A DNA stretch of 64,000 bases from an uncultured bacterium (GCA_942492765.1 OW818634.1:409159-473158); one strand, 5' to 3'; numbered from the stretch's first letter, positions 25,133 through 64,000 are shown. The notes: a model not told the origin generated them from the sequence alone. Made by a program: numbers and translations.

Positions 25133-25218
25133 CTAACTTACAACAATTTAACACTTTTTGATGTTGTGTCAAATACTGTATTTTTCGCCAACTATCTTCA
25201 ACCGCAAAATCCAAAGTA

Positions 25219-25256: not shown

Positions 25257-25300
25257 AGTACGAGTCAGTTCTAATCATAAGAAGAATGTTTAGCGACATA

Positions 25301-25744
25301 CTACACTGGCACAAAAGTTACATCAAAGTGGTAGGTGTATGTCTTATTCTTCTCAATAACTACGGAAACTGGAGCGGGAGAATACGTGGTTTCGAACACG
25401 GGACTAGGCAAGGTCGATGACCACATCCGGTAAATATGTACCGAGGAGCAAACAATTACCTCTTTTCCTATGATGGCTCTAGCTTCCTCTCCTTTGAATA
25501 CCTTTCTAGTTCCTGGAGCAAACTCATATAATGCGCTTGACCAGGTATTTAACCAAATTCCGACGGAATTTTTTTCGGTTAAATACTCTGATTTCCAGGG
25601 AGTCAGAATACTAGTGGTGACGATGAAGACTACACTGTCTTCTTTGGGTGTGACGGGTTCTTCGTTAAAAGAATCCTCCGACTTGCTGCAGCTCGCCATG
25701 AATATCATCATGACAGTAGCTAAGAAAAATAACATCTTTCTCAT
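25301..25744 (-). CDS. Lipoprotein, paralog B
   Basis: Signal peptide with lipobox (FMASC). The N- and C-terminal segments are conserved with paralog A and the middle is divergent. Confidence 0.7.
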   Translation of the reverse strand: MRKMLFFLATVMMIFMASCSKSEDSFNEEPVTPKEDSVVFIVTTSILTPWKSEYLTEKNSVGIWLNTWSSALYEFAPGTRKVFKGEEARAIIGKEVIVCSSVHIYRMWSSTLPSPVFETTYSPAPVSVVIEKNKTYTYHFDVTFVPV

Positions 25745-25802
25745 GATTTTATGTTTTTAAGGTTCTTGTTGTCTTTTTTATCCTCTGTAATTAACTATAG
25801 AT

Positions 25803-25831
25803 AGTATATAACATTATCAAGGTTTTGTCAA
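25803..25831 (-). promoter_or_regulatory. Sigma70-type promoter TTGACA-N17-TATACT for lipoprotein B
   Basis: Minus strand reads TTGACA (25831-25826), a 17-nt spacer, then TATACT (25808-25803). Confidence 0.55.
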
Positions 25832-25858
25832 GCAAGTTATCAACAGGCTAGAATATGC

Positions 25859-28800
25859 CTAATAATTCCTAGCATAAGCCCCCCAGTTATCAGTAACCTG
25901 TATCTTCAGAGTCTTCGGGCCCTTAGAAGAATAATAATGATAGAAAACATGGGGATTAGTGGCTGTCGGGTGATGATCTTCGCCGGTGATAGTCTGGACG
26001 CTGCCATCGCCCCAGTCAAGAATGATTTCCTTAAGCGGCTGCTGTTCCTTGTCGACCTGACTATTAAATTCTAGGCGATAAACGCCTTTATTAAGGATAT
26101 CAAAAGTATTGCCGGAAGCGGAAATCGTAGTCCTGGTCCCGCCGGCATAAAGCCTGATATTACTGATAGTCGGATAAATCCAGCAGAAAGAACTCGTTCC
26201 CTCTCCAATGCGCGTATCATTAGCGCATTTATTCAGAGTCGAAGTAAAATCGGAATAGAAGCGTGTATCGGGTCCATAGACATTATCATTAAAATTATAA
26301 CTTCTATAAGATGTCATGAACAAGGTCTTTAGGATATTCCTATAATCGGGAGTACTTTGTTCACTAACAATGACTGGGGATAACTGTTGATTCCAAAGCG
26401 GAATACAGGTGCCTGACCCATCACAAGAGTTAATGCCGATGGCGGTATCGCCGGGAACTAGGCTGGCGGCGGTCAAGCAATAGGCATCTTTATTTTCGCT
26501 GCAATAACCAATAGAAGTACAGCCGCTCGCATTCCCTATTTGATTACAACCATAAGGCCGGCCAGCGGAGATAGTTTCTTTATTACTATCTGAATAAGTA
26601 TTGCGCAGAGTAACCGGCGCGCTCAGAGAGCTTAGGTCATTAGGCAGGGCGGCGGCACCATAAGGAATAAAAGATCGATTCCGGCCATACCCGGAGATAG
26701 CTTTAGGCGCAGCGCTATACTTATTATTCGAGCTGTCAACGAAGAACCCGGGCGTGGTATCAGGATAAGCTGGATCGCCGTTGATTCTGGCGGCCCAAGA
26801 CTTATTCTCGCCATTCTCATTGACAACCTGGATGAACCTATTGCAAGTGAAGCGAAAAATCTTAGTCGGATCGTCTCCGGAGTTATCTAGTAGCTTTAAA
26901 TCATTTTCCGTCGTCGGCGGAGTATTATAGTCATAAACCCGGACAATCGGATCAGCTAAGACCTGATTATCTGCGGCAGTCCCGTGGCCGCTATACCGAT
27001 ACCAGCCGTCAGTTGAGACAAAGAGCATAGCACGATAGGCACTTCCGCTACTCACAGTAGAACCGTTGACCCAAGAATCGGCATTCGCCAATAGTCTGGT
27101 ATAGGTATAGCCCGTGGTCGCGGTTGACCAGTCCTCGAGATATCTATGCTGGCTCGGGCTATTAAAACTGGTGTCGTCATCTCTCAATACTTTAAGAATG
27201 AATTTCTTGCTGGCATTGTTCTTCGGAACGCACCACCAATCGCCGTTACAGTTCCAGTGGTCGCCTCTCCACCAAGAATATTCGTAATAGAATCTTTCGT
27301 AGCCCGAGGCGCAAGAGCCAGCGCTAGTCTGAAAGCCGTCGTTAGAATCTCCACTATCACAATCGCCGTTAGTATTATCATGTCCTAGATAATAAGCCTT
27401 CCGATTTTCTACTAAATCAAAATTACCGTTCAATTCCGTACAATAATTAAGAGGATAAGTGCCTTTATAGGCATAGGCAGACTGCTGAGAAATCCTAGTG
27501 GTCGAAATCTTATCGACCGGATACCAGATCAAGCAGACGCTCGGATTGAAAGAATCATGCTCTAAACAATAGCCCTCTAGGCCGTTCTTAATCACATTGC
27601 TATTCTTAGTTTCGCAAGTCAGGCTGTCTTCAGTCGGATAGAGACGGCATTCGCGCGGCGCGTATTGGTTATTGCCGATTTCTAAGACCGGCTCGATACT
27701 GAGATTATCAAAATAAACAGCGTTCTTATCCTGAGGATCGCTCGTATCCGAGCTCAGATAAATCTTGATCTTATTCTTCCCTTCTCCGTAGCCGATATCG
27801 AACTTGGCAATCTTCGTTTCCCAGCCGGTAGGCGCGGCCGCGTAAAATATCATTGGCGCGTTGGTCACCGGATCATTCATGACCGTGCCATTTACGTCAG
27901 TAATCATCACTTTCGTGCGCAAGGTCGAGCCCTTGGTATTAATCATGTAGCTCAAATAATAGGTATTGGTTTTATTTGCTTCAGGCGAGGCTAATTCAGC
28001 AAAGCCAGTCGGCCCATCGCCTAAAGTAGAGACTTGATATGGAGCGACGACTTTCAGATAACCCTTGCCTTGGGCCGGATAATCAGTCGGGGCATTCTCC
28101 GGTTCTTTCACTACGGCGTAAGCGTCGTTAGGGCAGGCCGCGGGACCGGAAAAATTAATATTACCATGGCAGCTCAGCGAGGGGCTATCCTCAAAATCAG
28201 CATAGAAACCGGAGCTGAACCCAACCTCCTTGATCTGGCTGAAATGATATTTATTGAGCAAAGAATAGCCGGTCGCGTTCTTATCGTTATTAGCATCGAA
28301 GCTGCGGACCGCCGTCGGCATAGTGATAAAATTGGCGCATTCATTCTTATCATCCAGGCGGTTGCATTCGGCGACAGCATAACAAGTCTTCTTCTTCGTG
28401 GCCGGATCCTCAATATAAGTCACGCAGTCTAGCCATTTAGAGCAGACGCGGTCTGGGCGGACTTTGATAAGCTGATTAGAGGTGCATGACCCCTGAACGC
28501 TAGGCGAACAGGCGGTCGGCGTAGCGCCGGATACTGTCTTATAAGCATCCCAGCCTTTTTCTAAGCTGACTAGACCGGAAGCTCCGGCAACATTGCGTTC
28601 ATTGAAGAGAACGCAGCCGTCGTCGAAATTCACGAGCCCATTGCAGCTCGTCTTATCAATATTAGCTTTCAGCTGATAATCGACAACCAGTTCCCTGACT
28701 TCTATGGTCTTGCCCGTCGCGCCGCCGCTGACCAAGGCCGTGGAATTATTGATAGAATTAAATATTATCGGCTGATTGGCATTACTGGAAATAGTGAAGC

Positions 28801-42706: not shown

Positions 42707-43573
42707 ATGAAAAATAAAAAAATCCTCTCTCCTGGACATAACGCCTGCGCCGGCTGCGGCCAATTATCAGCAGCTCAATCGGTGATGAGAGGATTGAACG
42801 AAAATGTCATCATCGCTAACGCGACCGGCTGCCTGGAGGTGACGACGACTGCCTATCCGCAAAGCTCTTGGGGCTTACCGTGGATACATTCCCTTTTCGA
42901 GAATGCCGCAGCGGTAGCTTCGGGAATTTCTGCCTCCTTGAGACAGAAAGGCGATACCAAGACGAAAGTAGTAGTTCAAGCCGGAGACGGCGGGACCTTC
43001 GATATCGGTATCGGTCTGGTCAGCGGCATGTGGGAACGCGGCGAGAATATCTTATATATCTGCTATGATACGGAAGCCTATTCTAATACTGGCTACCAAG
43101 CTTCCGGCAGTACTCCTTACGGCGCTAATACAACGACGACTCCGAGCGGACTTGCTTCTATCGGCTCGGCGCAGCGCAAGAAAGACATGATCGGCATCGC
43201 TCTAGCGCACGGCTTGAAGTATGTCGCGCAAACGACTGCCGGCTTTCCTGATGATATCACTAACAAGGTAAAAAAGGCTCTGACTGTCGAAGGCCCGAGT
43301 TATATCCAGATCCTCTGCCCTTGCATACCTTATTGGAAAATAAATAACGATATGGCGGTAACTATGGGAAAACTGGCCGCCCAGACGGCTTTATATCCGC
43401 TCCTAGAATACGTCGACGGACGCTTAGTCTCTTCCAGCATCAAAGAAGGCTTCCAAGCTAAACCAGCCGCAGAATACCTGAAAGGACAAGGACGCTTCAA
43501 GCATCTTAAAGATGAAGATATCACCTTGATTGAAGAGATCGGGCGAGACAATAGCGCTAAATATAAAATATGA
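42707..43573 (+). CDS. porB: Pyruvate:ferredoxin oxidoreductase, beta subunit (TPP-binding)
   Basis: Start taken at ATG 42707; the track start at 42536 overlaps the upstream gene. Contains GHNACAGCG and the TPP motif GDGGTFDIG. Confidence 0.9.
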   Translation: MKNKKILSPGHNACAGCGQLSAAQSVMRGLNENVIIANATGCLEVTTTAYPQSSWGLPWIHSLFENAAAVASGISASLRQKGDTKTKVVVQAGDGGTFDIGIGLVSGMWERGENILYICYDTEAYSNTGYQASGSTPYGANTTTTPSGLASIGSAQRKKDMIGIALAHGLKYVAQTTAGFPDDITNKVKKALTVEGPSYIQILCPCIPYWKINNDMAVTMGKLAAQTALYPLLEYVDGRLVSSSIKEGFQAKPAAEYLKGQGRFKHLKDEDITLIEEIGRDNSAKYKI

Positions 43574-44946
43574 AAAAAGGATTCTTGATAACCGGTCTTC
43601 TCGGCATAATCCTGACGTCCTTTTTGCCGTTAACGGCTCACGCTGCGGGAACTTGCACCTGGCGCATGAAGGTAAAGAGCATCGGCACGGCGGATAATCC
43701 GATTGGAGCGACTACTGGCGGCTGTCTGAATGGAGAAATAAAGGACTCCGAAACGAGTTGTGACGCCGCCACTAATCCTGGACCTAAAACTTATATAGAC
43801 AGCACCGGCACTCCGGAGTGCTGCTGCTCCGGCCAGAATCCTACTCAGGATAATTGTTATTGGCAAAAAGACATCGACCGCCCGCTCGTCGGTCCGGTCC
43901 GCAATTTCATCTGCGGCGCTGGTTACGAGATACAATATGTCGGAACGGACCCGCTCGCTCTGAATAATAAATGCCGCGCAATTACTAAGCCGACCGACTC
44001 TAGTTTCGATTATGCCTGTTGCTGTGCGGTTACTCAGACCCCGACGATCTCTGACACCACGGCTCCTAAGTTCACCATGCCAGAATTACAAATAAAGTTG
44101 CCGACCCTCAAACTGACCGAACCGGAATGCACCCTCAATAACGACGGTTCATATCATTGCGAGATTCCCTGGCTCGGACAATATATCGTCGCGGTCTATA
44201 ATTACGGCTTGAGCGTCGCCGGTATCTTAGCAGCAATAATCCTGATGGCTGGCGGCGTCTTATGGCTCATTTCCGGCGGCGACGCCGGCAAAGTCGGCCA
44301 AGCGAAAGAGCTTATCATGGGCAGCATAGTCGGCCTCGTCATCTTAGCCGGATCTTATATAATACTGACGCAGATAAATCCTGATTTGGTAAAATTCAAG
44401 GCTATCAGCATCGGCACGATCAAGGGCAAACAGCTAGCTTTGGCCGGCGCTCGCTACAGCTCTAAAGCGGAAGACTATAAGAATGCTCCTTGCGCGACTG
44501 AAGCGGAATTAGAAAAAGGCATAGATTTCTATGCGACCGGATATTATAAGCCTATTTGGGAAGATACGGATAATTTTCGCTGCGTCATCGCGATGCAATG
44601 CAGCTGTCCTCTGGGTATCGATACTACTAAGAATTGCGATCAGCTCTACGGCCAGACTTTTCCGGGCTATCATCCTTGCAAGGCCTTTACTCAAGATACT
44701 CTTTATTGCAATATGACGGCTACTGGCGGCGCGCCGCAAGATGGCGACATTGCCGGACCTAATAATTGCCGAGCGGAATTGCCTTACGGCACTCAAGTCT
44801 GTTTCCGCGGCCAAACTTATACGATCAGAGACACTGGCGGAGGCATCATGGGCAAGAGAATCGATGTCTGGAGCGGCGATAACTTGGATAAAGCCATGAG
44901 TGTTACCGGAGTCGGCACCCTGACCAAAGGCGCATGTAAACAATAG
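43570..44946 (+). CDS. Secreted Cys-rich protein with a VirB2/TrbC-like pilin hairpin and a C-terminal 3D (MltA/RlpA-type, peptidoglycan-lytic-like) domain
   Basis: The start overlaps the porB stop (ATGA). The hairpin YNYGLSVAGILAAIILMAGGVLWLISGGDAGKVGQAKELIMGSIVGLVILAGSYIILTQINPDL is paralogous to the one in 41725..42702. The C-terminus has GQTYTIRDTGGGIMGKRIDVWSGD. Confidence 0.7.
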   Translation: MKKGFLITGLLGIILTSFLPLTAHAAGTCTWRMKVKSIGTADNPIGATTGGCLNGEIKDSETSCDAATNPGPKTYIDSTGTPECCCSGQNPTQDNCYWQKDIDRPLVGPVRNFICGAGYEIQYVGTDPLALNNKCRAITKPTDSSFDYACCCAVTQTPTISDTTAPKFTMPELQIKLPTLKLTEPECTLNNDGSYHCEIPWLGQYIVAVYNYGLSVAGILAAIILMAGGVLWLISGGDAGKVGQAKELIMGSIVGLVILAGSYIILTQINPDLVKFKAISIGTIKGKQLALAGARYSSKAEDYKNAPCATEAELEKGIDFYATGYYKPIWEDTDNFRCVIAMQCSCPLGIDTTKNCDQLYGQTFPGYHPCKAFTQDTLYCNMTATGGAPQDGDIAGPNNCRAELPYGTQVCFRGQTYTIRDTGGGIMGKRIDVWSGDNLDKAMSVTGVGTLTKGACKQ

Positions 44947-53109: not shown

Positions 53110-54600
53110 TTATTTTCTGAGGATTTCCTTAATCTTTTCAAAAACAGTCTTCCCCGTCAGTCTTATCTTGATCTCCTGGATATCCAAATAATTGGCTGCC
53201 CCAGCCGCGCCGTCCAAACCGGGGATGGAGATTAAAAAAACATACTTATTCTTCTCATTAACAGATTCCTTCAGATTCAGAGTCGCGCGCGCCGTCTTAA
53301 TTCTATCTTCCTCTAAGGGACGCTCGTAATCAGCGATGATATATTTGATATTGTCCGCTGGAAAAAAATAGCGATCAACCTTCTGTGCTCCGGGATTGAC
53401 TAGGCTAGTGGAAGAAAAAGCGAAGACGCCGTTATTTTCCAAGACTAGATCATCCTTGTCAAGAATAATCTTATTAATTCCGCTTCCGGCCTGAAAAGAA
53501 AATTGTTTATAGGTCTTATCGAGAGCAAATCTATCGCCGCCGAAACTGACTTTACCGAGAGAAGCCGGATTTACAGTTGAAATGCCGAGATAAGAAGCAT
53601 CGGTAAATAAAATTAGACTACCCTTCCCCGATACCGGCCAAATCTTATTAATGAAAGAGATCTTATCAGATGAACTATTAAGCTTTGACATCACGATATC
53701 ATCGCTGACTTTGATTTCGACGCGATATAGCCCCGCAGCTTTCTGCCCGCTTAAAGTCAGGCTCTTATTTTCACTCTGGCCATTATCAGGCGTCGGGTTA
53801 TTATCAATTAGGGTCTTAGTGGCGATGACATTATCCCCCGCATAAACATTGACTGTAATTGGATCCTGTTCTTTGTCCAAATTCAAATCGACGAAATCAA
53901 AAGCCAGGCGCCAAGAAGAGGCTTGAAAGTAGACATAAAATTGGTGCGCACCCCTCAAGGGCTGACTGATGACTGTTGGATCAGGCGAAACATAGCCGGG
54001 CAAACGGAACTCAGAATTAAACTGATAATTATAAGTCGCGACGCAAGCCGTCGGACCGTTCGGGCATGCCTGCAAATTTCCGTCTTCCAAATCTTTTTCA
54101 AATTCGGCCGGATTATCATAGTATTTTTCTGTCTGCAAAACTAGGTGGCCGTCCTCATCTGCTAAGCGCGGCCATGAGAAACGATAGCGATCGATGATAT
54201 TATTCTGAAGAGGCTGAAGCTCATATTGCCCAGTCAGCTTATCCCTTAAGACACCAATCTCGATTATTGGCGTCGCTGTCGCCAGCTGATCACGATACCT
54301 GACAGTTATTTCCGCCTGATCAAATAGGCGCGGCGCATACAGGCTAAAATATAACGGCTCGGCCACCAGCCTTAATGACGAAGAACTGGCGTCTAGCCGT
54401 TCAGCTGGCTTAAAATCATAAATGAATCCTTTACCAGAAGCTAATCCCCGCGGCCAAGTCCGGCTATAGGTAATATGGCCGAAAGGGACAATTTTCAGGC
54501 ACACAAAAAGAAGCACTAAAATCAGGGTAATTAACCCTAAAATAAGGCGTATTTTAAACAAAAATGACCTTTTTTCCCAAAAGGATCTTAATTTCTTCAT
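53110..54600 (-). CDS. Membrane-anchored hypothetical protein (beta-rich extracytoplasmic domain)
   Basis: 496-aa ORF with an N-terminal TM helix and no motif I can name. Confidence 0.6.
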   Translation of the reverse strand: MKKLRSFWEKRSFLFKIRLILGLITLILVLLFVCLKIVPFGHITYSRTWPRGLASGKGFIYDFKPAERLDASSSSLRLVAEPLYFSLYAPRLFDQAEITVRYRDQLATATPIIEIGVLRDKLTGQYELQPLQNNIIDRYRFSWPRLADEDGHLVLQTEKYYDNPAEFEKDLEDGNLQACPNGPTACVATYNYQFNSEFRLPGYVSPDPTVISQPLRGAHQFYVYFQASSWRLAFDFVDLNLDKEQDPITVNVYAGDNVIATKTLIDNNPTPDNGQSENKSLTLSGQKAAGLYRVEIKVSDDIVMSKLNSSSDKISFINKIWPVSGKGSLILFTDASYLGISTVNPASLGKVSFGGDRFALDKTYKQFSFQAGSGINKIILDKDDLVLENNGVFAFSSTSLVNPGAQKVDRYFFPADNIKYIIADYERPLEEDRIKTARATLNLKESVNEKNKYVFLISIPGLDGAAGAANYLDIQEIKIRLTGKTVFEKIKEILRK

Positions 54601-54628
54601 ATCTCTATTTTACTTTATTTTTAGTAAT

Positions 54629-54651
54629 AAAAAAAGGGCGAATAAAGCCCC
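54629..54651 (-). terminator. Second (tandem) terminator downstream of the rSAM gene
   Basis: Minus-strand GGGC...GCCC stem (54047-type numbering not used; plus-strand 54036-style positions are 54636-54639 and 54647-54650), followed by a run of 7 U. Confidence 0.4.
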
Positions 54652-54664
54652 AGATATTCAACTT

Positions 54665-54704
54665 ATAAAAAGAGCCATTAGGGGATAAAATCCGATAATG
54701 GCTC
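54665..54704 (-). terminator. Rho-independent terminator closing the RiPP-like cassette
   Basis: 9-bp stem, GAGCCATTA (54672-54680) paired with TAATGGCTC (54696-54704). The loop is 15 nt and a U-run follows on the minus strand. Confidence 0.6.
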
Positions 54705-54715
54705 GCAAATACTTA

Positions 54716-56014
54716 CTATGGGTTAATAAGATACGCAAATTCTTTCCTTATTAGAAGCCCGATAATTTTAATAAAGGCTTCTCGCGTCGAATTTTCAGCT
54801 CCATTTTTTAACAATTCCGAAACTGATAATGGCGAGGACTCTGCTAGCCAGCAGACAAAATGAAACATTTCTTCATTAACAACAATAAGATTTCCACCAC
54901 CATTTTTAGAAGAAATGGAGTAATTTTTATCTTCTCGCCGCCAGCGAAGCTTTCCATTAAAATGCACGACTGAATAATCGTTAATGTCCGTTTTGACTTC
55001 CCTCTTGGGGGGTAGACTAATCGGCCCGATGGTTAAACGATCTTGTTTATTTAACAGGCCAAACGATGCCAAAGAATTTGTCCGGCAAGCCCCATTGCAA
55101 GACGATACCGTCGAACAACATTTACAAATATCTGGAACGACATCATTTCTATAAGAAACCATCTTGCCCCAAATTCCACTTAATGTTTCATGAAAAATAT
55201 TTCCATAAACATTCGGGTTGTGCGAACAGGGGCGAACATCTCCGACGTTAGAGATGCTGACAGACATTCGACCAGCCTGGCACGATCGCTTCGTAAAAGA
55301 ATAGTCTTTTTCCCAACACCAGCTTGGCAAAAAACATTTTGGCAGCGGCTCCAATATATCAACCTCTAGCTTGAGATTATCGGCGCACCATCTTAAATCA
55401 TCTAATAAAGAAATGGTCTGATGACCGCTAAGCAATTCCTCAAGATTGGGATGTTCGACATTAAGTCCGGCTGGAGTTGCAGCGAATCTTTTGACTCCTA
55501 AATCACGCATATCAGATGCTGTAGTCTTAATAAATTCACGATTAACTGGAGTAACTACCATATTAATCATGCAGGAGATACCAACTTCTGATAGCAACTT
55601 AATTTTTTCACGCAACCGATTATAGTCGCCGCAACGAGTGATATGCCTATAAACATCGGGGTCGCTTGCCGGACATGACACCAAGAAACTATCAATCCCG
55701 GACTCTTTAAAATCAAGAGCTAATTCTGGAGTGAGTAGCAAAAGATTTGTGTTGATAGAAACAAACATGCCGGCATTTTTTGCAGCTTTTACGGCGTTAA
55801 CGGCTAAATTAGGACGAGCCAAAGGCTCGCCACCGGTAATTACTAAGGAATAAATTTTAGCGTCTACCATCTTTTGAACCAGCAACATAACATCCTCATC
55901 TTCCAAATCATTAGATTTTGGCATACTGCTGGTATCAAAGCGGTAACAGTGCTTACAGCGCAAATTACAGATATCTGTAATTTCCAACTGGACATGCGTT
56001 GGCAATCTTAACAT
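54716..56014 (-). CDS. Radical SAM enzyme with a SPASM auxiliary-cluster domain and a PqqD/RRE-like C-terminal extension (peptide maturase)
   Basis: CNLRCKHC (Cx3Cx2C, aa 16-23), GGEPL (aa 61-65), and the SPASM pattern C245-x12-G-x4-C263 ... C297-x2-C300-x5-C306-x3-C310. A perfect SD, AAGGAGGT, lies 6 nt upstream of the ATG. Confidence 0.9.
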   Translation of the reverse strand: MLRLPTHVQLEITDICNLRCKHCYRFDTSSMPKSNDLEDEDVMLLVQKMVDAKIYSLVITGGEPLARPNLAVNAVKAAKNAGMFVSINTNLLLLTPELALDFKESGIDSFLVSCPASDPDVYRHITRCGDYNRLREKIKLLSEVGISCMINMVVTPVNREFIKTTASDMRDLGVKRFAATPAGLNVEHPNLEELLSGHQTISLLDDLRWCADNLKLEVDILEPLPKCFLPSWCWEKDYSFTKRSCQAGRMSVSISNVGDVRPCSHNPNVYGNIFHETLSGIWGKMVSYRNDVVPDICKCCSTVSSCNGACRTNSLASFGLLNKQDRLTIGPISLPPKREVKTDINDYSVVHFNGKLRWRREDKNYSISSKNGGGNLIVVNEEMFHFVCWLAESSPLSVSELLKNGAENSTREAFIKIIGLLIRKEFAYLINP

Positions 56015-56056
56015 GACTTACCTCCTTTTTTTTTCAAATTATTAAAGATCGGTTAA

Positions 56057-56638
56057 TTATTTAAATTGATTTAAAATTTTTGAAAAATAATCCTTGGTAA
56101 AATTAAAATTAAAAATCTTATAAAAATTAATAGCAAACCGTCTACGATTAACCGCGGGGTTAAAGCTATTTATTAATTTCAAAAATTTTATTTTACCGTA
56201 TTTTTTTATAAAATATTCTACCCAAAATTGCCCCACCATATAAGCATCTTTGTCTGCCTTGTCAAAATAATCAAAGATATTTAAAAGCTTATCTTTATAT
56301 CCATCTTTCAAAATTAATTTTTTTCCGGAAACAAAAGATGCCAGGCCTTCATTCAGCCAAATTGGATAGTGACTTTGGGTTATCTGGGTATAATAATAAT
56401 GACAATACTCATGTTTTAGCGTTTCCCAAAACTCTCTTTTCTTATGGCTAGATTCTTTAGCATATACTGCGGGATTCAGAATATAAATACTATTATTCTT
56501 AAAGGCGCCAACAAACCAACGTTCCGTTTTCTTGCCCCAAATAATATCCAGGTCCTCCCTACAATCCAATAAAAACAATAGTGGTTCACGAGCTTCAAAA
56601 TCAAAAAAATCATCCAATTCTTTTTTTGTTTTTTCCAA
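56057..56638 (-). CDS. Putative gluzincin (peptidase MA-like) metalloprotease, a candidate leader peptidase
   Basis: Contains HEYCH...WLNEGLA (HExxH-x16-E with an NEG context like the M1 / Peptidase_MA_2 families). Very AT-rich. The start is uncertain (TTG 56638, no SD). Confidence 0.6.
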   Translation of the reverse strand: MEKTKKELDDFFDFEAREPLLFLLDCREDLDIIWGKKTERWFVGAFKNNSIYILNPAVYAKESSHKKREFWETLKHEYCHYYYTQITQSHYPIWLNEGLASFVSGKKLILKDGYKDKLLNIFDYFDKADKDAYMVGQFWVEYFIKKYGKIKFLKLINSFNPAVNRRRFAINFYKIFNFNFTKDYFSKILNQFK

Positions 56639-56714
56639 GAATTGAACTAACTTTTTGTTAGCTTTTACTGATTTTATAGATAAATATTTTTTTATATATT
56701 TATACGCCTATTTT

Positions 56715-56754
56715 TTAAAAAAAGTCGCCACGACTCTATTGCTATCATGGCGAC
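56715..56754 (-). terminator. Intra-operon terminator/attenuator right after the precursor ORF
   Basis: On the minus strand GUCGCCA (56754-56748) pairs with UGGCGAC (56730-56724). The loop is 17 nt and 7 U follow (56723-56717). Confidence 0.5.
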
Positions 56755-56776
56755 ATAATTGACTCCTCTGCTGCTC

Positions 56777-56902
56777 TTAATTTGGGCTGTCACAATCACA
56801 GCCAGAGCCTTCACCGCCGCTAGCATCGCAATTACTTTCGCCATTAGGAGCTTCTGATAAGGCGATAATTTGCATGCTGTCAAATTTGAATTCCTTTTTC
56901 AT
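56777..56902 (-). CDS. 41-aa Cys/Asp-rich candidate RiPP precursor peptide, not in the ORF track
   Basis: By hand translation it reads MKKEFKFDSMQIIALSEAPNGESNCDASGGEGSGCDCDSPN. An SD-like AAAGGAAAGGA ends 7 nt before the ATG. It lies between a consensus promoter and a terminator, upstream of the peptidase and rSAM/SPASM genes. Confidence 0.6.
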   Translation of the reverse strand: MKKEFKFDSMQIIALSEAPNGESNCDASGGEGSGCDCDSPN

Positions 56903-57013
56903 GATCAAATCCTTTCCTTTTCTTTATTAACGTTATTTGACTCTTCGGGTCGAAACTCTTTTAAGCTTCGCTTAGCAATATGCCCCTTAAATATCTAAAA
57001 AGAACTTATCCAC

Positions 57014-57042
57014 ATAATATCCATTAAAGATGTTTTTGTCAA
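57014..57042 (-). promoter_or_regulatory. Sigma70-type promoter TTGACA-N17-TATTAT driving the precursor/RiPP cassette
   Basis: Minus strand reads TTGACA (57042-57037), a 17-nt spacer, then TATTAT (57019-57014). It lies about 110 nt upstream of the precursor ATG. Confidence 0.6.
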
Positions 57043-57060
57043 TAGAGAGCATATAGGGCC

Positions 57061-57089
57061 AAAAAAAAGAAACCCCAGTCAGGGGCTTC
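57061..57089 (-). terminator. Rho-independent terminator of rpoC
   Basis: On the minus strand GAAGCCCC pairs with GGGGUUUC (8 bp, one G-U pair). The loop is UGACU and 8 U follow (57068-57061). Confidence 0.7.
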
Positions 57090-57116
57090 TTTTTATATTA
57101 AAACTCTTAATTTCCT

Positions 57117-60100
57117 TTATTTCCCGTAGTCCATTCTCGCCTTCTTGCCCTTATAGCCGGTTCCGGCCGGGATTAGGCAGCCGATAATGACATTCTCTTT
57201 CAAGCCCTCGAGATAATCGATCTTGCCGTTAACCGCGGCATCGATCAAAACACGGGAAGTCTCTTGGAAAGAGGCGGCTGATAAGAAGCTATCGGTCGTC
57301 AAAGATGCTTTAGTGATACCCATGAGCAAGCGATCGGCCTTAGCCGGATTCTTCAAGCCCTTATTAGCCTGTTCGAGCACCTCTTCTTCGACAGTTTCGC
57401 CGGACAAGACCATAGCGTCGCCGGCATCGGTAATCAGATAGCGAGAGAACATCTGGCGGGCGATGATCTCAACGTGCTTATCGTTCAAAGGCTGGCCTTG
57501 AGAACCATAGACGTATTGGATTTCCTTGATGATGTATTTCTGAGTCTCTAGACGTCCTTTCAACTTGTATAATTCGCGCAGATCAAGACTGCCTTCAGTC
57601 AGCTGCGTGCCTCTCTCGATCGCCTCGCCATCCTTGACCATCATCATAGTTCCCTTCAAAATCGGATATTCTTTGACTTTTTCGACTTCTTTGGCAATAG
57701 AAATATATTTTTCCGTAACCGCGGCTATGCCATTAGTCTTAGCCTTGACGATTTCGGCTCCAACCTTGAACAGCTCGGTATTCTTAGAGACATTCTCGCC
57801 ATCCTTGACCAGCACCTTGACCTCTAATTTCTTAGTGTCCTTGGCGCTTAGGCCTCCAGCCAGCTTAAGCTCGTTGACCTTCTCGGAAAAATAATATTTA
57901 TCATGATCCTTGCCTTTATAATAGATGCTCAAGATCTTGGTCTGCGGATTGTTGACGGAAATCTCTTTGCCGTCCTTATCCTTGATAATCTTCTGAGCAA
58001 ATTCGATCTTAACCTTGCCGGTAACGTCGGAAATAAGCGCTTTCTTCTTCGGGCTGCGCGCTTCAAAGATTTCTTCGACGCGAGGCAGACCCTGGGTGAT
58101 ATCATCTTGGCCGGCGACGCCTCCCGTATGGAAGGTTCTCATCGTCAGCTGCGTGCCTGGTTCGCCGATAGACTGCGCCGCAATCGTGCCGACAGTCGAG
58201 CCCATCTTAACCTCCTTATTGTAAGCCAGATCCCAACCATAGCACTTCGCGCAGATGCCCTTATGCATCTTGCAGCTAAGCACCGATCGGACGCAAGCCT
58301 GTTCGATATCCTTAGTCTTTGCTAATTTGATATTTTCTTCATTTAAGAGTTCTCCGGTCTTCAAGACAACTTTGCCCTTATTATCTAAGAGGTCCTTGGC
58401 TAAGAAACGGCCGGTCAGGCGCTTGAAGAAATCTTCGCCATTCTTCTCTATTTCCGCGCGGCTCAGATCGAGACCGACGGTATCGCCGCAATCGTCATCG
58501 GAAATGATGATATCTTGAGCGACATCGACTAAGCGGCGAGTCAGATAACCGGCGTTAGCGGTTCTAAGAGCGGTATCAGACAAACCTTTGCGGACGCCGT
58601 GAGTGGAAATGAAATATTCGAGAACGCCGAAGCCTTCTTTGAAGTTTCCTTTGACTGGAAGTTCGAAAATAGCGCCGGAAGGAGAGGTAACCAAGCCCTT
58701 CATGCCCAAGATCTGAACCGGCTGAGCCCAAGAACCGCGGGCTCCAGATTCGATCATGGAATAAACCGGCAAGATATTGATCAAGCCTTTCTTACAGATA
58801 GTCGCGATCTTATCTTTGGTTCCGGTCCATTCTTCGATGACTTTGGCGTAGCGTTCGCTCTCGGTCAATAAGCCTTCGTTATACTGCTCCTGAATAAGCT
58901 CTACCTTCTTATTCGCCTCTTCAATCAGTAAATCCTTCTCTGGCAAGCTCGGCAAGTCGCCGAAGCCCCAAGACAAGCCGGACTTAGTGATGAAGGCGAA
59001 GCTGCGATTCTTCAAGCCGTCGATGAACTTGACGGTCTCTTCTTCGCCATATATTCTCAGACATTCACGGATCAAATCTTTTAATTTGCCCTTACCGACG
59101 ACTTCGTTAAGATAACGGAGCTTCTCCGGCAATAAGGAGTTGAAGATCAGGCGGCCGACGGTAGTCTTCAGCATCTCGCCGTCATATTTGACGTTGATAG
59201 CCTCATGCAAGCCGATGCCATTGCTTTCGTAAGCTAAATAAGCCTCGTCTTCATTATAGAAATAATGCATGTCTTCCTTCTTCTTGTCGGCGTAGTCGGC
59301 TTCCACTAAAGTAATATAATAAGTTCCCCAGACGATGTCCTGGGCTGGAGTGACGATCGGATCGCCAGTAGCCGGTTTCAATAAGTTATGGGAAGACAGC
59401 ATCAAGGTTTCCGCCTCGTGTTTAGCTTCCTTAGTCAAAGGCACATGAACGGCCATCTGGTCGCCATCGAAGTCGGCATTGAAAGCCGTACAAACGAGCG
59501 GATGAATCTGGATAGCCTTGCCTTCGATCAGGATCGGGCGGAAAGCTTGGATACCTAAGCGATGCAGGGTCGGAGCGCGATTCAACAATACAAAGGCGCC
59601 TTTGATAATCTCTTCTAAGATATCCCAAACCTCGTCATGCCCAGCTTCCATATAACGGGAAGCGCTGCGCACGTTATGAACGATCTCGCGCTTAATGAGC
59701 TGAGAAATGACGAACGGCTTGAATAGCTCTAAAGCCATGATCTTCGGCAAACCGCATTGATCGAGATTCAAGCGCGGATTGACGACGATGACGGAGCGGC
59801 CGGAATAGTCGACGCGCTTGCCTAATAGATTCTGGCGGAAGCGGCCCTGTTTGCCTTTCAAAGTATCAGCTAAGGATTTCAATTGGCGCTTCTGGCCAGT
59901 CGAAGCCGTAACCGTCTTGGTGTGGCGGGCGGAATTGTCAATCAAAGCATCGACCGCTTCCTGAAGCATGCGCTTCTCGTTGCGGCAGATGACTTCCGGA
60001 GCATTAAGGTCCATGAGCTGCTTTAAGCGATTATTGCGGTTGATGATGCGGCGATAAAGATCATTAAGATCAGAGGCCGCGAAACGGCCGCCGTCTAAAG

Positions 60101-61049
60101 CGACCATCGGGCGCAGATCCGGAGGCACTACGGGCATGACGGTCATAATCATCCATTCCGGACGGATATTATTATTGCGAAGGCCTTTCAATAATTTCAG
60201 GCGCTTCACTAATTTTTCTTTCTTAGAATCAACCGCGCCGGTCAATTTCTCTTCCAAAGATTTAATGCTCTTATCTAGATCGATCTGAACCAGCAGCTTG
60301 CGGATAGCTTCGGCGCCGATAGAGGCCTCGAAGATATGGCCGAATTTCTGGCTCAATTCTTGGTATTGCTGTTCGCTCATGATTAGAAGCGGCTTCAACT
60401 CCTTCAGTTCTTTCTGAACCTGGCCGAAATCCTCTTCTAAGCGAGCCAAGCGCTCAGCCTTGGCTTTGATAGCTTCTTTTATTTCCTTATTATTGTCGTC
60501 GGCCTTATCATTCTCTTCCTTGATTTTCTTGACCTGGACATTGAATTCATTATCAATGCTCTTTAATTTGGATTTATATTCGGCCTTGATCTGATCAATT
60601 GTGGATTCTTTCAAAGCTTCGTCGACTTCAGTGACGATAAAGCTGGCATAGTAGATGACTTTTTCCAAAGACTGGATGCCTAAACCTAAGAGCAGGCCGA
60701 TCTTAGAAGACAAGCCTCTTAAGAACCAGATATGAGAAACCGGGACCTGCAAAGTAATGTGTCCCAGGCGTTCGCGGCGGACGATGCTGCGAGTAACTTC
60801 CACGCCGCACTTGTCGCAGACAATCCCCTTATAGCGGATCTTTTTATATTTGCCGCAAGCGCATTCCCAGTCCTTGGTCGGACCAAAGATCTTCTCGCAG
60901 AATAAGCCGTCCTTTTCCGGCTTCTGCGTGCGGTAATTAATGGTTTCCGGCCGCGTTATCTCGCCGTGCGACCAATCGAGGATTTCCTCGGGGCTGGCCA
61001 ACTTGAGACGGATGGCTGCGAAATCGCTGGTTTTTATCGGATTTAACAT
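57117..61049 (-). CDS. rpoC: DNA-directed RNA polymerase subunit beta'
   Basis: Start taken at MLNPIK (ATG 61049), 25 nt after the rpoB stop. Contains the NADFDGD catalytic motif and a Zn-binding CxC...CxxC region. Confidence 0.95.
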
Positions 61050-61074
61050 ATGTATATTGATTACGAATTTATTA

Positions 61075-64000
61075 TTATTCGTTCGCGATGTCGCTGACAT
61101 TGATATCCGCGACTATCTCCGGCTTGTCATAAGCAAATTTTTCATCCAGCTTGATCTCTTCATCAATATCGGTGACGACTTCCGAGGCTGGATTTCCGCC
61201 AGCGCTATCCAATAATTGGACGTTGAGGCCTAAGCCCTTCAGTTCACGAATCAGGACGTTGAAAGATTCCGGAACGTTCAGCTTCTCTATTTCCTCGCCC
61301 TTGATGATGGCTTCGTAAGCCTTGCTGCGTCCAGGAACGTCATCGGACTTGATCGTCAGCATCTCTTGCAGAGTATGGGCAGCGCCGTAACCTTCGAGAG
61401 CCCAGACTTCCATTTCTCCGAATCTCTGGCCGCCGAACTGGGCTTTACCGCCTAAAGGCTGCTGCGTGATCAAGGAGTAAGGACCGATAGAGCGTTGGTG
61501 AATCTTGTCTTCAACCATGTGGTTGAGTTTAAGCACATATTTATAACCAACCGTAATCTTATTATCATAAGGATCACCGGTCTTACCGTCATAAAGATAG
61601 ATCTTTCCGTCTTCAGGCAAGCCAGCGGCTTTCAATTCGCCTTTGATTTGCGCTTCGGAAATTCCATTCAAAGCCGGAGTCATAACGCGATAGCCTAATT
61701 TCTGAGCGGCAAAACCCATATGAGTTTCCAATAACTGACCGAGGTTCATACGGGAAATGATGCCTAAAGGAGAAAGGATGACGTCAATCGGAGTACCGTC
61801 GGCCATGAAAGGCATGTCTTCAATCGGAACGACGCGGGAAATAACGCCTTTATTGCCGTGGCGTCCAGACATCTTGTCGCCGACCTGGATCTTTCTCAAG
61901 TTAGCAACCGCAACTTGAATAGACTTCAAGACGCCAGCTGATAATTTATCGCCTTCCTCACGAGAGAATATCTTGATATCGACGACTTTGCCGTGCTCGC
62001 CGTGCTCTAAATACATAGAAGAATCGCGAACATCCTTGGCTTTCTCGCCGAAGATCGCGCGCAATAGCTTCTCTTCAGCCGAAAGGGTGGTTTCGCCCTT
62101 CGGAGTAATCTTGCCGACTAAGATGTCGCCGGAAGATACCTTGGCGCCGATGCGGATGATACCCTCTTCGTCGAGATTCTTTAATTTCTCTTCGCTGATA
62201 TTCGGGATGTCGTTAGTGATGACCTCCGGACCGAGCTTGGTATCGCGGACATCGATGGTGTAATTCTCAATATGAATGGAGGAATAGATATCTTCTTTGA
62301 CCAAGCGTTCAGAAATAATGACCGCGTCTTCATAATTGAAGCCTTCCCAGGTCATGAAAGCAACTAGGACATTGCGGCCCAAGGATAATTCACCGTTATC
62401 AATCGCCGGACCGTCGGAAAGGATATCTCCTTTCTTGACCTTCTGGTCGACATCGACGACTGGATGCTGATTGATACAGGTCGAGGAATTAGAACGCAAG
62501 AATTTATTCAAATGATAAGTAATGACCCGGCCTTTCTTATCGGTCAATTCGATGGTACCGGCATCAGTCTTAGTGATTACGCCGTCTTCATCGGCAATGA
62601 TAACGTGGCCGCTATCGCGAGCCGCCCGCGCCTCGACGCCGGTGCCGACGATTGGCGCTTCCGCCTTAATCAACGGGACAGCCTGACGTTGCATGTTCGT
62701 ACCCATCAAAGATCTCTGTCCATCATTATGTTCCATGAACGGGATAAGACTGGTCGCGACGGAAATGATCTGATTGGCAGCGAGGCCGACAAAATCTATC
62801 TTAGAGACTTCGGACATGCCCGGCTGGCCATTCTTTCTGACCTCATGCTTAGACACGATGAAATAGCCATCCTTATCGGTCGGGATAGTCGCATCAACAG
62901 TAATATATTTTTCTTCTTCAAAAGCATCCAGATAGACAACCTCATCAGTCACCTTGGTTCCCTTCTTATCATGAGCGGTCTTTCTATAAGGCGTCTCTAA
63001 GAAACCGTAAGTATTCAAGCGCGCATAGCTGGCTAAATGGCCGACGAGACCGATGTTCGGACCTTCTGGAGTGGCGATCGGGCAGATACGGCCGTAGTGG
63101 GTAGTATGAACGTCGCGGACATCGAAGCCGGCGCGCTCGCGAGTCAAGCCGCCCGGACCCATCGCTGATAAGCGGCGCTTGTGCTCTAATTCGGCGAGCG
63201 GATTAGTCTGATCCATGAACTGCGACAACTGAGAAGACATAAAGAATTCGCGGACGACGCCGATGACTGGGCGAGCATTCACGAGCTTGGAAGGAGTAAG
63301 AGAAGCGACATCCGATGTGGACATGCGATCCTTGATGATACGCTCCATTCTCGCCAAACCGACGCGGAAACGATTCTGAATCAGGCCGCCGATAGCGCGG
63401 ATGCGGCGATTGCCGAGATGATCGATATCATCTTCCGGTTCTTTGACTATATTCAATCTAATAATTTCCTTAATGATCAAGACCAGGTCTTCTTTGCGCA
63501 AAATCCGGTTCTCTTTCTTATTAGCCGGCAAATCAAGCGTAAAGCGGCGATTCAATTTATAGCGTCCGACGCGGCCGAAATCATAGCGGTCAAAGCGGAA
63601 GAACATGGAGTGGATGAGCTGGCGGGCATTATCGACAGAGGCCAGGTCGCCCGGACGGATGCGGCGATAAACTTCCTGAAGGCCTTCCGCCTCATTCTTG
63701 GCAGCGTCCTTCTCGATCGTCGCTTCGATATAGCCCTTCTCATCCTTGCTCTTAACCAGATCGACATCAGCGAAAAGCTTTACCAGCTCTTCATCGGTTT
63801 CATAGCCAAAAGCCCGAAGCAATGAAGTGACGGCGACTTTTCTCTTGCGATCGATGCGGACCCAGAGGACCTTATTAGCATCGGTCTCGATTTCCAGCCA
63901 AGCGCCGCGATTCGGGATGACTTTCGCGCCATAGCATTTCTTTCCCTTGATGAATTCAGCGGTGAACATGACGCCGGCGGACCTGATCAGCTGAGAGACG
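61075..64000 (-). CDS. rpoB: DNA-directed RNA polymerase subunit beta (5' end outside the window)
   Basis: The frame stays open to the window edge (..[16 protein letters not shown]..). Contains GRHGNKGV and the typical RpoB C-terminal motifs. Confidence 0.95.

What the first reader, a model, noticed from the sequence alone, without database searches (positions are those of the whole stretch)
54601..57060. Composition and translation-signal discontinuity mark the RiPP cassette as probably horizontally acquired
The cassette is visibly more AT-rich than its flanks. By hand count, the 60-nt line starting at 56101 has 17 G+C, against 29 G+C in the rpoC line starting at 57181. These are illustrative single lines, not a statistic.

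The rSAM gene has a perfect AAGGAGGT SD and the precursor has AAAGGAAAGGA. The native genes whose starts I inspected have no SD-like sequence: metK, ahcY, rpoC, leuS, radA, recJ, porG, porA and porB. The unit is bracketed by the rpoC terminator on one side and two terminators on the other. I saw no integrase, tRNA or direct-repeat scar.
Basis: seen in the sequence. Interest (0 to 1): 0.55.

Follow-up and report, generated by a model that had tools for sequence, protein, structure and literature searches.

The report
Laterally inserted peptide-antibiotic-type gene cassette
A self-contained 2.4-kb three-gene cassette for a modified peptide was inserted just after rpoC in one Falkowbacteria (candidate phyla radiation) genome; about 30 relatives have that site empty, so this is ordinary gene transfer, unusually well documented.

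Summary

**Composition.** Window 54637..57061 (2,425 bp) has 36.6% GC against 46.7 ± 2.3% for the rest. It is the most deviant segment of the window in both GC and tetranucleotide signature.

**Translation signals.** The radical-SAM (rSAM) and precursor genes have the two strongest Shine-Dalgarno (SD) sites of 43 genes. The host lineage otherwise uses none.

**Empty sites.** The host is a Candidatus Falkowbacteria. In every relative whose fetched locus extends past rpoC (28 loci, rpoC 77-97% identical), rpoC is followed by the same 496-aa gene. In the closest relative an 11-bp spacer sits where the window has the cassette. Flanks are native up to both junctions.

**The same module elsewhere.** It consists of promoter, structured 5'UTR, precursor, attenuator hairpin, HExxH peptidase, rSAM-SPASM maturase and terminator. 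It occurs at seven or more other chromosomal sites in other Patescibacteria.

**Not ameliorated.** The rSAM GC3 matches the host GC3 in four other hosts but not here. The closest copies sit in ~32% GC DNA.

**Correction.** The SD sites are a conserved cassette trait in SD-poor hosts, so they are not a mark of recent arrival. The peptidase gene is AT-rich in every host.

**Donor and mechanism.** The donor was probably another Parcubacterium. No integrase, tRNA or convincing repeat scar was found, so the insertion mechanism is unknown.

The parts
54637..57061 (-). The inserted unit (2,425 bp), absent from the syntenic site of relatives. The right boundary is uncertain by about 15 bp.
   Evidence: blastn against L025: window 62000-57062 matches L025 9101-14039, and window 54636-52000 matches L025 14051-16685. 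Junction alignment A1. GC and tetranucleotide outlier.
57061..57090 (-). Host rpoC intrinsic terminator (9-bp stem, 5-nt loop, T-run). It forms the left border of the insert.
   Evidence: Read from the sequence and found as inverted repeat I17. Conserved with compensatory changes in L025 and L020.
57014..57042 (-). The cassette's own sigma-70-type promoter: TTGACA, 17-nt spacer, TATTAT.
   Evidence: 11 of 12 matches to consensus, the best in the region. TTGACA is invariant in 7 cassette copies (alignment A2).
56947..56986 (-). Conserved structured RNA in the precursor 5'UTR: P1 (4 bp), a 12-nt conserved loop CAUAUUGCUAAG, and hairpin P2 (7 bp).
   Evidence: Across 8 copies, 93% of cells are paired and 8 of 11 pairs show changes on both sides. 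Covariation is 0.695 against 0.325 ± 0.055 for shuffles (0 of 500 reach it), and slid controls are at most 0.23. The covariance model hits only cassette copies in 725 kb. No Rfam family matches.
56910..56920 (-). SD-like AAAGGAAAGGA upstream of the precursor gene.
   Evidence: Energy -8.7 kcal/mol, rank 2 of 43 genes. An SD is present in 5 of 7 copies.
56777..56902 (-). Precursor peptide gene, 41 aa: MKKEFKFDSMQIIALSEAPNGESNCDASGGEGSGCDCDSPN.
   Evidence: A conserved small ORF lies upstream of the peptidase in 8 loci. The leader carries an FxFxxM motif and the core reads CDxxGSEGSGC(D/E)C(D/E)S. No Pfam or NCBIfam family matches.
56717..56754 (-). Hairpin plus T-run directly after the precursor gene, probably an intra-operon attenuator or terminator.
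   Evidence: Read from the sequence. The stem is conserved by structure with different sequences in all 7 aligned copies (A2).
56057..56638 (-). Small HExxH...NEG (gluzincin, M1-like) metallopeptidase, 193 aa from the TTG start. Probably the leader peptidase. No SD. GC 0.294.
   Evidence: Peptidase_MA_2 matches at E = 6.6e-6 but below the cut-off; Peptidase_M1 matches weakly. Weak matches to aminopeptidase N. It is syntenic in all copies. The upstream start codons used by homologues are TTA and GTA here, and the reading frame is open from 56707 (sequence reading).
56020..56027 (-). Perfect SD AAGGAGGT, 5 nt upstream of the rSAM ATG.
   Evidence: Energy -13.6 kcal/mol, rank 1 of 43 genes. Conserved in 6 of 7 copies.
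54716..56014 (-). Radical SAM / SPASM peptide maturase, 432 aa, with a C-terminal beta3-alpha3 (RRE-like) domain.
   Evidence: Pfam Radical_SAM 3.5e-26, Fer4_12 and SPASM. All invariant cysteines of the family are present (A4). The AlphaFold2 (AF2) model has pLDDT 92, and its best PDB folds are SuiB and SkfB. No NCBIfam equivalog cut-off is reached.
54667..54704 (-). Cassette terminator: a 15-bp imperfect hairpin followed by T's, after the rSAM stop codon.
   Evidence: Inverted repeat I12 and sequence reading.
54625..54651 (-). Second terminator-like hairpin GGGGC-loop-GCCC plus T-run, at the right junction. The 3' half and the T-run also exist in empty sites.
   Evidence: Comparison of occupied and empty slots in relatives.
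54601..54624 (-). Host promoter region of the 496-aa gene. The -10-like TAAAAT at 54612-54607 lies 6 nt before the ATG at 54600. It forms the right border.
   Evidence: Conserved in about 15 relatives directly after the terminator T-run.

Best explanation
**What it is.** Window 54637..57061 is a complete, portable expression module for a ribosomally made, post-translationally modified peptide (RiPP). It carries its own promoter, a structured 5'UTR and an SD-led 41-aa Cys/Asp-rich precursor gene. An attenuator hairpin, a small HExxH peptidase, an SD-led radical-SAM/SPASM maturase and a terminator follow.

**How it got here.** It was acquired laterally by one Candidatus Falkowbacteria lineage, after that lineage split from its closest sampled relative. 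The donor was most probably another Parcubacterium with a lower G+C content. The module landed in the short spacer between the rpoC terminator and the promoter of the next gene. Related genomes carry other cargo in that same slot.

**Shown here:**
- the insertion itself;
- its borders;
- its atypical composition;
- its absence from the syntenic site of relatives;
- the module's presence at other sites in other genomes;
- conservation of its regulatory parts.

**Inferred:**
- The donor GC is inferred from the fact that the copy is not ameliorated and that the closest copies sit in 32% GC DNA.
- The SD sites are inferred to be functional, kept because these genes lie behind a long structured leader or inside an operon.
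- The rSAM is inferred to cross-link the conserved Cys residues, sacti- or ranthipeptide-like, and the peptidase to remove the leader.
- The integration mechanism is unknown. With no recombinase present, DNA uptake followed by illegitimate or microhomology-mediated recombination is the default guess.
For: **Empty site.**
- 28 loci with rpoC 77-97% identical have rpoC followed by the p496 homologue, and none contains a cassette gene.
- In 20 of them the gap is about 90-200 bp; eight carry a longer interval.
- L025 has an 11-bp spacer at the exact site.
- The flanks remain closest to L025 up to the junctions: 86% and 94% identity in the first 200 bp.

**Composition.**
- GC z = -4.5, the lowest of 568 windows, and the lowest tetranucleotide correlation of 142.
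- GC3 z = -3.5 for the rSAM and -5.5 for the peptidase.
- The five closest relatives have locus GC 0.43-0.46, so drift in host GC does not explain the difference.
- In L001, L006, L008 and L009 the rSAM GC3 is within 0.5 sd of host GC3, so the deviation here is not a family property.

**Homologous copies.**
- The whole module, including the promoter and leader, is 72% identical at DNA level to L062 (GC 0.32) and 68% to L001 (GC 0.32).
- The module sits in different contexts elsewhere:
  - between metK and ahcY (L003/L004);
  - between the giant protein and a T4SS-like block (L006, L008);
  - after ferritin (L001);
  - next to a prophage-like region with a serine recombinase (L009);
  - upstream of a dCMP-deaminase and ThyX (L065/L066);
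  - between two paralogous secreted proteins (L068).
- The window's own metK-ahcY site and giant-protein site lack the cassette.
- No rSAM homologue lies between 72% and 100% identity in 5.8 billion proteins.

**The slot.** L036, L039, L040, L016, L046 and L057 carry unrelated cargo at the same point.
Against: - No integrase, transposase, tRNA, terminal inverted repeat or convincing target duplication was found, so the mechanism is unexplained.
- Only about 24 kb around rpoC was examined in each relative, so a copy elsewhere in those genomes is not directly excluded.
- The donor is not sampled; the best match is only 72% identical.
- In the single quartet with shared host markers, the rSAM grouping agrees with the host grouping. 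Phylogeny therefore gives no independent sign of transfer.
- Part of the AT-richness is intrinsic, because the peptidase gene is AT-rich in every host.
- The genome is assembled from a metagenome, and no reads were available to check that the junctions hold in the population.
Confidence: 0.85

Rival explanations
1. The cassette is ancestral at this site in Falkowbacteria and was lost independently in the sampled relatives (differential loss, no transfer).
For: - The slot shows signs of cargo turnover. Empty sites in L025, L020 and L010 keep a half-terminator, G(C/G)CC plus seven T's, between the rpoC terminator and the next promoter.
- The rSAM family is native to this group of Parcubacteria, and the rSAM grouping is congruent with host proteins in one quartet.
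Against: - None of the 28 loci that reach past rpoC has the cassette at this slot, so many independent precise losses would be required.
- The cassette's GC3 is 3.5-5.5 sd below host genes, while long-resident copies in other hosts match their hosts.
- The closest relatives have the same GC as the window.
- No homologue above 72% identity exists anywhere in the protein collection.
Confidence: 0.05
2. The cassette moved within the genome. It was vertically inherited in this lineage at another slot, such as metK-ahcY or the giant-protein slot, and relocated to the rpoC slot without entering from outside.
For: - Related genomes carry it at those other slots.
- The window's giant-protein slot (about 24.4-25.9 kb) is the second strongest compositional outlier and holds other small ORFs.
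- The quartet is congruent.
Against: - A long-resident gene should have host-like GC3, as in L001, L006, L008 and L009. Here the rSAM is at 0.37 against 0.54.
- The five closest relatives (rpoC 89-97% identical) contribute no NCBI-sourced homologue above 64% identity.
- The closest copies are in 32% GC DNA.
Confidence: 0.07
3. The low GC and the odd translation signals are intrinsic to a weakly expressed accessory operon, or result from assembly chimerism, and say nothing about the cassette's origin.
For: - The peptidase gene is below host GC in all eight hosts.
- The SD sites are conserved in most copies whatever the host.
- Other small low-GC ORFs exist in the window, at 2028-2333 and 24618-25046.
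Against: - The presence/absence polymorphism with exact borders is independent of composition.
- A chimera would need two joins inside an 11-bp spacer, with native flanks on both sides.
- The rSAM GC3 tracks host GC3 elsewhere but not here.
Confidence: 0.03

Closest known systems
Genomic islets in integration hot spots between conserved core genes (strain-variable cargo at a fixed slot)
   Same: - Presence/absence polymorphism with an intact empty site in relatives.
- Atypical GC, codon use and tetranucleotide signature.
- Different cargo at the same slot in different genomes.
   Different: - No integrase, tRNA target, insertion-sequence element or flanking repeats.
- The unit is only 2.4 kb and runs exactly from promoter to terminator.
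- The host is a reduced CPR genome of about 0.9 Mb.
Radical SAM/SPASM RiPP clusters: sactipeptides (SkfB, AlbA), ranthipeptides (PapB, CteB/SCIFF) and streptide (SuiB)
   Same: - A short Cys-rich precursor gene next to an rSAM-SPASM enzyme.
- The fold is closest to SuiB and SkfB.
- The precursor gene is followed by an attenuator hairpin.
- A dedicated peptidase is present.
   Different: - No curated equivalog model is reached: PapB 61 bits against a cut-off of 340, StsB 85 against 625, AlbA 63 against 850.
- The RRE-like domain is C-terminal rather than N-terminal.
- The precursor family, ending in GSEGSGCDCDSPN, matches no Pfam or NCBIfam family.
- The peptidase is a mini M1-like gluzincin.
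- The chemistry is unknown.
SD-poor bacterial lineages that keep a few SD-led genes. From my own knowledge: Bacteroidota. From PMC9297842: about half of Parcubacteria lack the CCTCCT anti-SD motif.
   Same: Host genes have A/T-rich leaders without an SD. In 256 genes, 0.8% have a strong SD. A small set of genes carries canonical SDs.
   Different: - The SD-led genes here belong to a mobile accessory cassette, not to core genes.
- Whether Falkowbacteria keep the anti-SD could not be checked, because no 16S sequence was in hand.

Membership tests
Horizontally acquired genomic islet | Absent from the syntenic site of close relatives, with an intact empty site | tested here: met
   All 28 relatives that reach past rpoC have rpoC followed by p496. 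L025 has an 11-bp spacer at the site.
Horizontally acquired genomic islet | Composition atypical for the host (GC, codon usage, oligonucleotide signature) | tested here: met
   GC z = -4.5. The tetranucleotide correlation of 0.60 is the lowest of 142 segments. GC3 z = -3.5 and -5.5. The reference is this 64-kb window only, not the whole genome.
Horizontally acquired genomic islet | Homologous unit present in other genomes in unrelated contexts | tested here: met
   Seven or more distinct contexts. DNA homology spans promoter to rSAM.
Horizontally acquired genomic islet | Gene tree incongruent with the species tree | tested here: inconclusive
   Only one quartet has shared host markers, and it is congruent. 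The hosts of the closest copies (L062, L001, L068) share no marker with the window.
Integrase- or transposase-borne mobile element (IS, transposon, integrative element, integron cassette) | Recombinase gene in or next to the unit | tested here: not met
   Pfam scans of all window ORFs found none.
Integrase- or transposase-borne mobile element (IS, transposon, integrative element, integron cassette) | Terminal inverted repeats, a target-site duplication, or a tRNA or att site | tested here: not met
   The window has no tRNA. There are no terminal repeats, only a 5-bp GCCCT at both junctions, which is compatible with chance. Cassette ends are not conserved beyond the -35 box and the rSAM stop codon.
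Radical SAM/SPASM RiPP gene cluster | rSAM CxxxCxxC motif plus the SPASM auxiliary-cluster cysteines | tested here: met
   Pfam Radical_SAM, Fer4_12 and SPASM all score above their cut-offs. C16, C20, C23 and seven further invariant cysteines are present. The fold matches SuiB and SkfB.
Radical SAM/SPASM RiPP gene cluster | Adjacent co-conserved short precursor ORF | tested here: met
   A 36-45-aa ORF with a conserved leader and Cys/Asp core is present in 8 loci.
Radical SAM/SPASM RiPP gene cluster | Peptide-recognition (RRE) domain | tested here: inconclusive
   In the AF2 model, residues 349-432 form three or four strands followed by three helices. There is no PqqD Pfam hit, and no fold search was run on the domain alone.
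Radical SAM/SPASM RiPP gene cluster | Demonstrated modification of the precursor | not testable with these tools
   Needs expression and mass spectrometry.
Curated sactipeptide or ranthipeptide maturase families (PapB, StsB, AlbA; the SCIFF maturase is not among the 25 listed hits) | Score above the NCBIfam equivalog cut-off | tested here: not met
   The best hit is GeoRSP at 100.8 bits against a cut-off of 400. PapB scores 61 against 340, StsB 85 against 625 and AlbA 63 against 850.

The most novel reading that the evidence does not exclude
The cassette family may be a recombinase-free 'plug-in' module that Parcubacteria exchange and drop into terminator-promoter junctions, which act as cargo slots. 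It carries its own portable expression kit: a consensus promoter, an undescribed structured 5'UTR RNA, and canonical SD sites. The SD sites work in a lineage whose own genes use no SD at all. If so, these bacteria would run two translation-initiation regimes, with SD-led initiation reserved for mobile accessory genes. The 5'UTR element would be a new cis-regulatory RNA controlling RiPP precursor output.
Probability: 0.2. Interest if true: 0.6.

Novelty: new member of a known kind. Interest (0 to 1): 0.42.

Why it matters
- **A clean, base-resolved case of gene gain in a CPR bacterium.** These organisms have tiny genomes and few recognisable mobile elements. The gain occurred without any recombinase, at a slot that also holds other cargo in relatives, including a diversity-generating retroelement.
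- **A caution about translation signals.** Conservation of the SD sites across diverged copies in SD-poor hosts shows they are a selected cassette trait. That makes a testable question: does a lineage that avoids SD sequences still use SD-led initiation for certain genes?
- **A defined new RiPP family.** It appears restricted to Patescibacteria among close homologues and has a conserved leader RNA. It could be expressed heterologously.

None of this overturns current views. Lateral transfer of small biosynthetic clusters is common.

Tried and rejected
- **Exact-sequence lookup of the window's rSAM.** It found no contig on record, so the source contig could not be fetched.
- **Phage vehicle.** IMG/VR holds only generic rSAM relatives, 22-38% identical over parts of the protein. 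Rejected for lack of evidence, although L009 has a prophage-like neighbour.
- **Closer donor in JGI metagenomes.** The best matches are 65-67% identical.
- **Import by homologous recombination with foreign flanks.** Rejected, because the flanks stay closest to L025 up to both junctions.
- **Target-site duplication.** Only a 5-bp GCCCT was found, which is not significant.
- **Terminal repeats or conserved ends across copies.** None found.
- **Known RNA families.** No Rfam hit in the window or in six relatives.
- **Anti-SD status of the host.**
  - No 16S rRNA gene is in the window or in the six relatives' loci scanned.
  - The paper reporting anti-SD loss in Parcubacteria gives no Falkowbacteria-specific statement in its main text, and no supplement is held.
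  - The upstream region of L025 does not contain the rplKAJL genes, so uL1 could not serve as a proxy.
- **Widespread leaderless transcription as the reason for missing SDs.** There is only a weak peak of TANNNT at -14 to -12, in about a quarter of genes. Not claimed.
- **PqqD Pfam match for the rSAM C-terminal domain.** None.
- **Literature.** No paper in the library describes this cassette.
Full report
**1. What is at the coordinates**

On the minus strand, downstream of rpoC (61100..57117), the following lie in order:

- a 41-aa ORF (56902..56777): MKKEFKFDSMQIIALSEAPNGESNCDASGGEGSGCDCDSPN;
- a 193-aa HExxH protein (56638..56057), with a weak Peptidase_MA_2/M1 match;
- a 432-aa radical SAM/SPASM protein (56014..54716), with Radical_SAM at E = 3.5e-26 and SPASM and Fer4_12 above their cut-offs.

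Next comes a 496-aa protein of unknown function (p496, 54600..53110). It is followed by an ADP-forming acyl-CoA synthetase, MurJ, LepA and RecJ.

**2. Checking the observation**

Using the borders found below, the insert has GC 0.366. The other 568 sliding windows of the same size average 0.467 ± 0.023, so z = -4.5 and none is as low.

*Tetranucleotide signature.* The insert's signature correlates 0.60 with the rest of the window. Other segments give 0.876 ± 0.05, and none of 142 is lower.

*Codon-level composition.* GC3 is 0.370 for the radical-SAM (rSAM) gene and 0.275 for the peptidase, against 0.54 ± 0.05 for host genes.

*SD sites in the window.* AAGGAGGT (56027-56020) and AAAGGAAAGGA (56920-56910) give the two strongest predicted pairings with the canonical anti-SD among 43 genes, at -13.6 and -8.7 kcal/mol.

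*SD sites in the lineage.* I repeated the test on 256 genes from 24 related loci.

| Set | Share reaching -8 kcal/mol |
|---|---|
| Falkowbacteria relatives, upstream of starts | 0.8% |
| Random in-gene positions in the same loci | 1.8% |
| Saccharibacteria control | 35% |

G content upstream of starts is flat at 7-20%. Position -1 is T in 77% of genes, whereas both SD-led cassette genes have C there. The translation-signal discontinuity is therefore real and lineage-wide.

*Terminators and mobility genes.* The bracketing terminators are present. There is no tRNA and no recombinase domain in any ORF of the window.

**3. Host and synteny**

The rpoC protein retrieves 52 loci from species-representative genomes. 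About 30 of them are 77-97% identical, and the named ones are labelled Candidatus Falkowbacteria or Patescibacteria. The 100% match to the rSAM comes from an NCBI contig of 895,742 bp.

Of those loci, 28 extend past rpoC. In every one, rpoC is followed by the p496 homologue, and none contains a cassette gene.

Against the closest relative, L025 (rpoC 97% aa), nucleotide homology runs as follows (junction alignment):

- window 62000-57062 matches L025 9101-14039;
- homology resumes at window 54636, matching L025 14051;
- 11 bp in L025 therefore correspond to 2,425 bp in the window.

L020 gives the same picture. Flank identity to L025 stays at 86% (left) and 94% (right) in the 200 bp next to the junctions. 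L025 remains the best match throughout, so no foreign flanking tract came in with the cassette.

**4. The slot**

In distant relatives the rpoC terminator's T-run directly abuts the conserved p496 promoter (TTTTTTT-ATTAC...TAAAAT, then 6-10 nt, then ATG).

In the window's own clade, the empty sites of L025, L020 and L010 carry an extra half-terminator, G(C/G)CC plus seven T's.

Six relatives hold unrelated cargo at the same point:

- L036 has 2.9 kb with a reverse transcriptase, an Avd-like protein and a target-like gene. This looks like a diversity-generating retroelement.
- L039, L016, L046 and L057 each have about 1 kb with one ORF.
- L040 has 0.9 kb with a secreted protein.

This is a cargo slot with turnover. 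At the window's junctions the only repeat is a 5-bp GCCCT, which is not significant.

**5. The cassette elsewhere**

*Homologues.* rSAM homologues of 50-72% identity are numerous. Where named, they come from Patescibacteria.

*Genomic contexts.* The contexts differ every time:

| Locus | Context |
|---|---|
| L003/L004 | between metK and ahcY, in a block syntenic with window 16.7-34 kb, where metK and ahcY are adjacent |
| L006, L008 | between the giant protein and a conserved 212/851/332-aa block |
| L001 | after ferritin |
| L009 | beside a serine recombinase and terminase |
| L065/L066 | upstream of dCMP-deaminase and ThyX |
| L068 | between two paralogous secreted proteins |

*Extent of homology.* DNA homology to L062 (72%) and L001 (68%) runs from window 57042, the -35 box, to the end of the rSAM gene.

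*Conserved parts.* An alignment of seven copies shows:

- an invariant TTGACA with a 17-nt spacer;
- a leader RNA element;
- the precursor gene;
- a structurally conserved hairpin plus T-run after the precursor;
- an A-rich region at the peptidase start.

The unit is therefore a promoter-to-terminator module.

**6. Is the composition informative?**

The peptidase gene is below host GC in all eight hosts, so part of its AT-richness is intrinsic.

The rSAM is the informative gene. Its GC3 is within 0.5 sd of host GC3 in L001, L006, L008 and L009. It is at -1.5 sd in L003/L004 and at -3.5 sd in the window.

The window's five closest relatives have locus GC 0.43-0.46, so the host has not drifted recently.

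The closest cassette copies lie in 32-36% GC DNA. Falkowbacteria loci range from 0.34 to 0.50 GC, so a lower-GC donor within the same group is plausible.

**7. Is the SD informative?**

It is not informative about recency. The rSAM SD is kept in 6 of 7 diverged copies and the precursor SD in 5 of 7. The peptidase never has one and mostly starts with TTG or GTG.

The hosts of these copies are themselves SD-poor. The SD sites are therefore under selection inside SD-poor hosts. This implies that those ribosomes can still use them.

A paper reports that the anti-SD motif is undetected in about half of Parcubacteria (PMC9297842). I could not determine the state in Falkowbacteria.

**8. Phylogeny**

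Only the window, L004, L006 and L008 share host markers. Both the rSAM and three host proteins group them as ((window, L004), (L006, L008)).

The family is therefore native to this part of Parcubacteria. The transfer is within the lineage, not across phyla. No rSAM between 72% and 100% identity exists in the protein collection.

**9. What the cassette encodes**

- *rSAM model.* The AlphaFold2 (AF2) model has pLDDT 92. It shows a C-terminal beta3-alpha3 domain at residues 349-432, which is RRE-like.
- *Fold matches.* The best PDB folds are the RiPP maturases SuiB and SkfB.
- *Family assignment.* No curated NCBIfam equivalog cut-off is reached.
- *Precursors.* They share FxFxxM in the leader and CDxxGSEGSGC(D/E)C(D/E)S in the core.

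I infer thioether-type cross-linking of the three conserved cysteines and leader removal by the M1-like peptidase. This is inference only.

**10. Verdict**

The event is an ordinary kind, the lateral gain of a small biosynthetic islet. It is documented here to the base pair in an unusual host. Three side findings deserve follow-up: conserved SD use in an SD-less lineage, a new leader RNA motif, and a recombinase-free cargo slot.

Noticed in passing
window 56986..56947 (- strand); also L062 110-149, L001 9054-9093, L003 6200-6239, L006 5076-5115, L008 9045-9084, L009 9004-9043, L068 1426-1465: Structured RNA in the precursor 5'UTR that matches no Rfam family. It has a 4-bp outer helix, a conserved 12-nt loop CAUAUUGCUAAG, and a 7-bp hairpin. 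8 of 11 pairs show compensatory changes and no shuffle reaches the observed covariation. A covariance model finds it only once per cassette in 725 kb. No Rfam hit at gathering threshold.
   Followed up: yes
L036 8944-11808; L039 13982-15059; L016 13946-15027; L046 13946-15012; L057 13955-14941; L040 3623-4518: The rpoC-p496 intergenic slot holds unrelated cargo in other Falkowbacteria. L036 has a reverse transcriptase, an Avd-like protein and a 213-aa target-like gene, which looks like a diversity-generating retroelement. L039 has a homologue of that 213-aa gene alone. Empty sites in L025, L020 and L010 keep a half-terminator that may be a scar.
   Followed up: partly
window 24400..25900: Second strongest compositional outlier of the window: GC about 0.36 and the lowest tetranucleotide correlation after the cassette. 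It holds two paralogous small ORFs (142 and 147 aa, lipoprotein-like signal) with similar upstream regions. It lies between the 2,717-aa giant protein and the 207-aa gene, the slot where L006 and L008 carry the RiPP cassette.
   Followed up: partly
window, all gene starts; L010-L058: Falkowbacteria start-codon context. There is no purine-rich SD region, and leaders are A/T-rich. T occupies position -1 in 77% of 256 genes, against 16-33% in Saccharibacteria and Proteobacteria controls. Strong SD-like sequences are rarer upstream of starts than inside genes. The p496 gene has a conserved TAAAAT 6 nt before its ATG (54612-54607), so it may be leaderless. A general leaderless signal is weak.
   Followed up: partly
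L065 180-270 and L066 960-1050: A decayed copy of the cassette. The conserved promoter is fused directly to the core-peptide remnant ...NNCDADGSEGSGCDCDSPN*, without leader peptide, start codon or 5'UTR element. The rSAM is called 32 residues short at its N-terminus. This copy is also a GC3 outlier in its host, at z = -4.9.
   Followed up: partly
window 56638..56707: The peptidase reading frame is open and protein-level conserved (KANKKLVQFL) upstream of its first possible start, TTG at 56638. The TTG and GTG starts used by homologues read TTA (56683-56681) and GTA (56668-56666) here. The window's peptidase may be N-terminally shortened or start at a non-canonical codon.
   Followed up: partly
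L009 12559-21296: In a 1.19-Mb Patescibacteria contig, the cassette lies 1.3 kb from a large serine recombinase, DNA methylases, a ResIII helicase and a terminase-like gene. This looks like a prophage or integrative element. It is the only context with a candidate mobility gene.
   Followed up: no
window 4964..9375 and 43570..44946: A type IV secretion-like cluster: a VirB4/TraG-type ATPase, a TraC-like protein, PrgI and a pilin-like protein. It is conserved next to the cassette in L006 and L008. Three tandem paralogues with a PEP-utilizer domain lie at 11200-16251.
   Followed up: no
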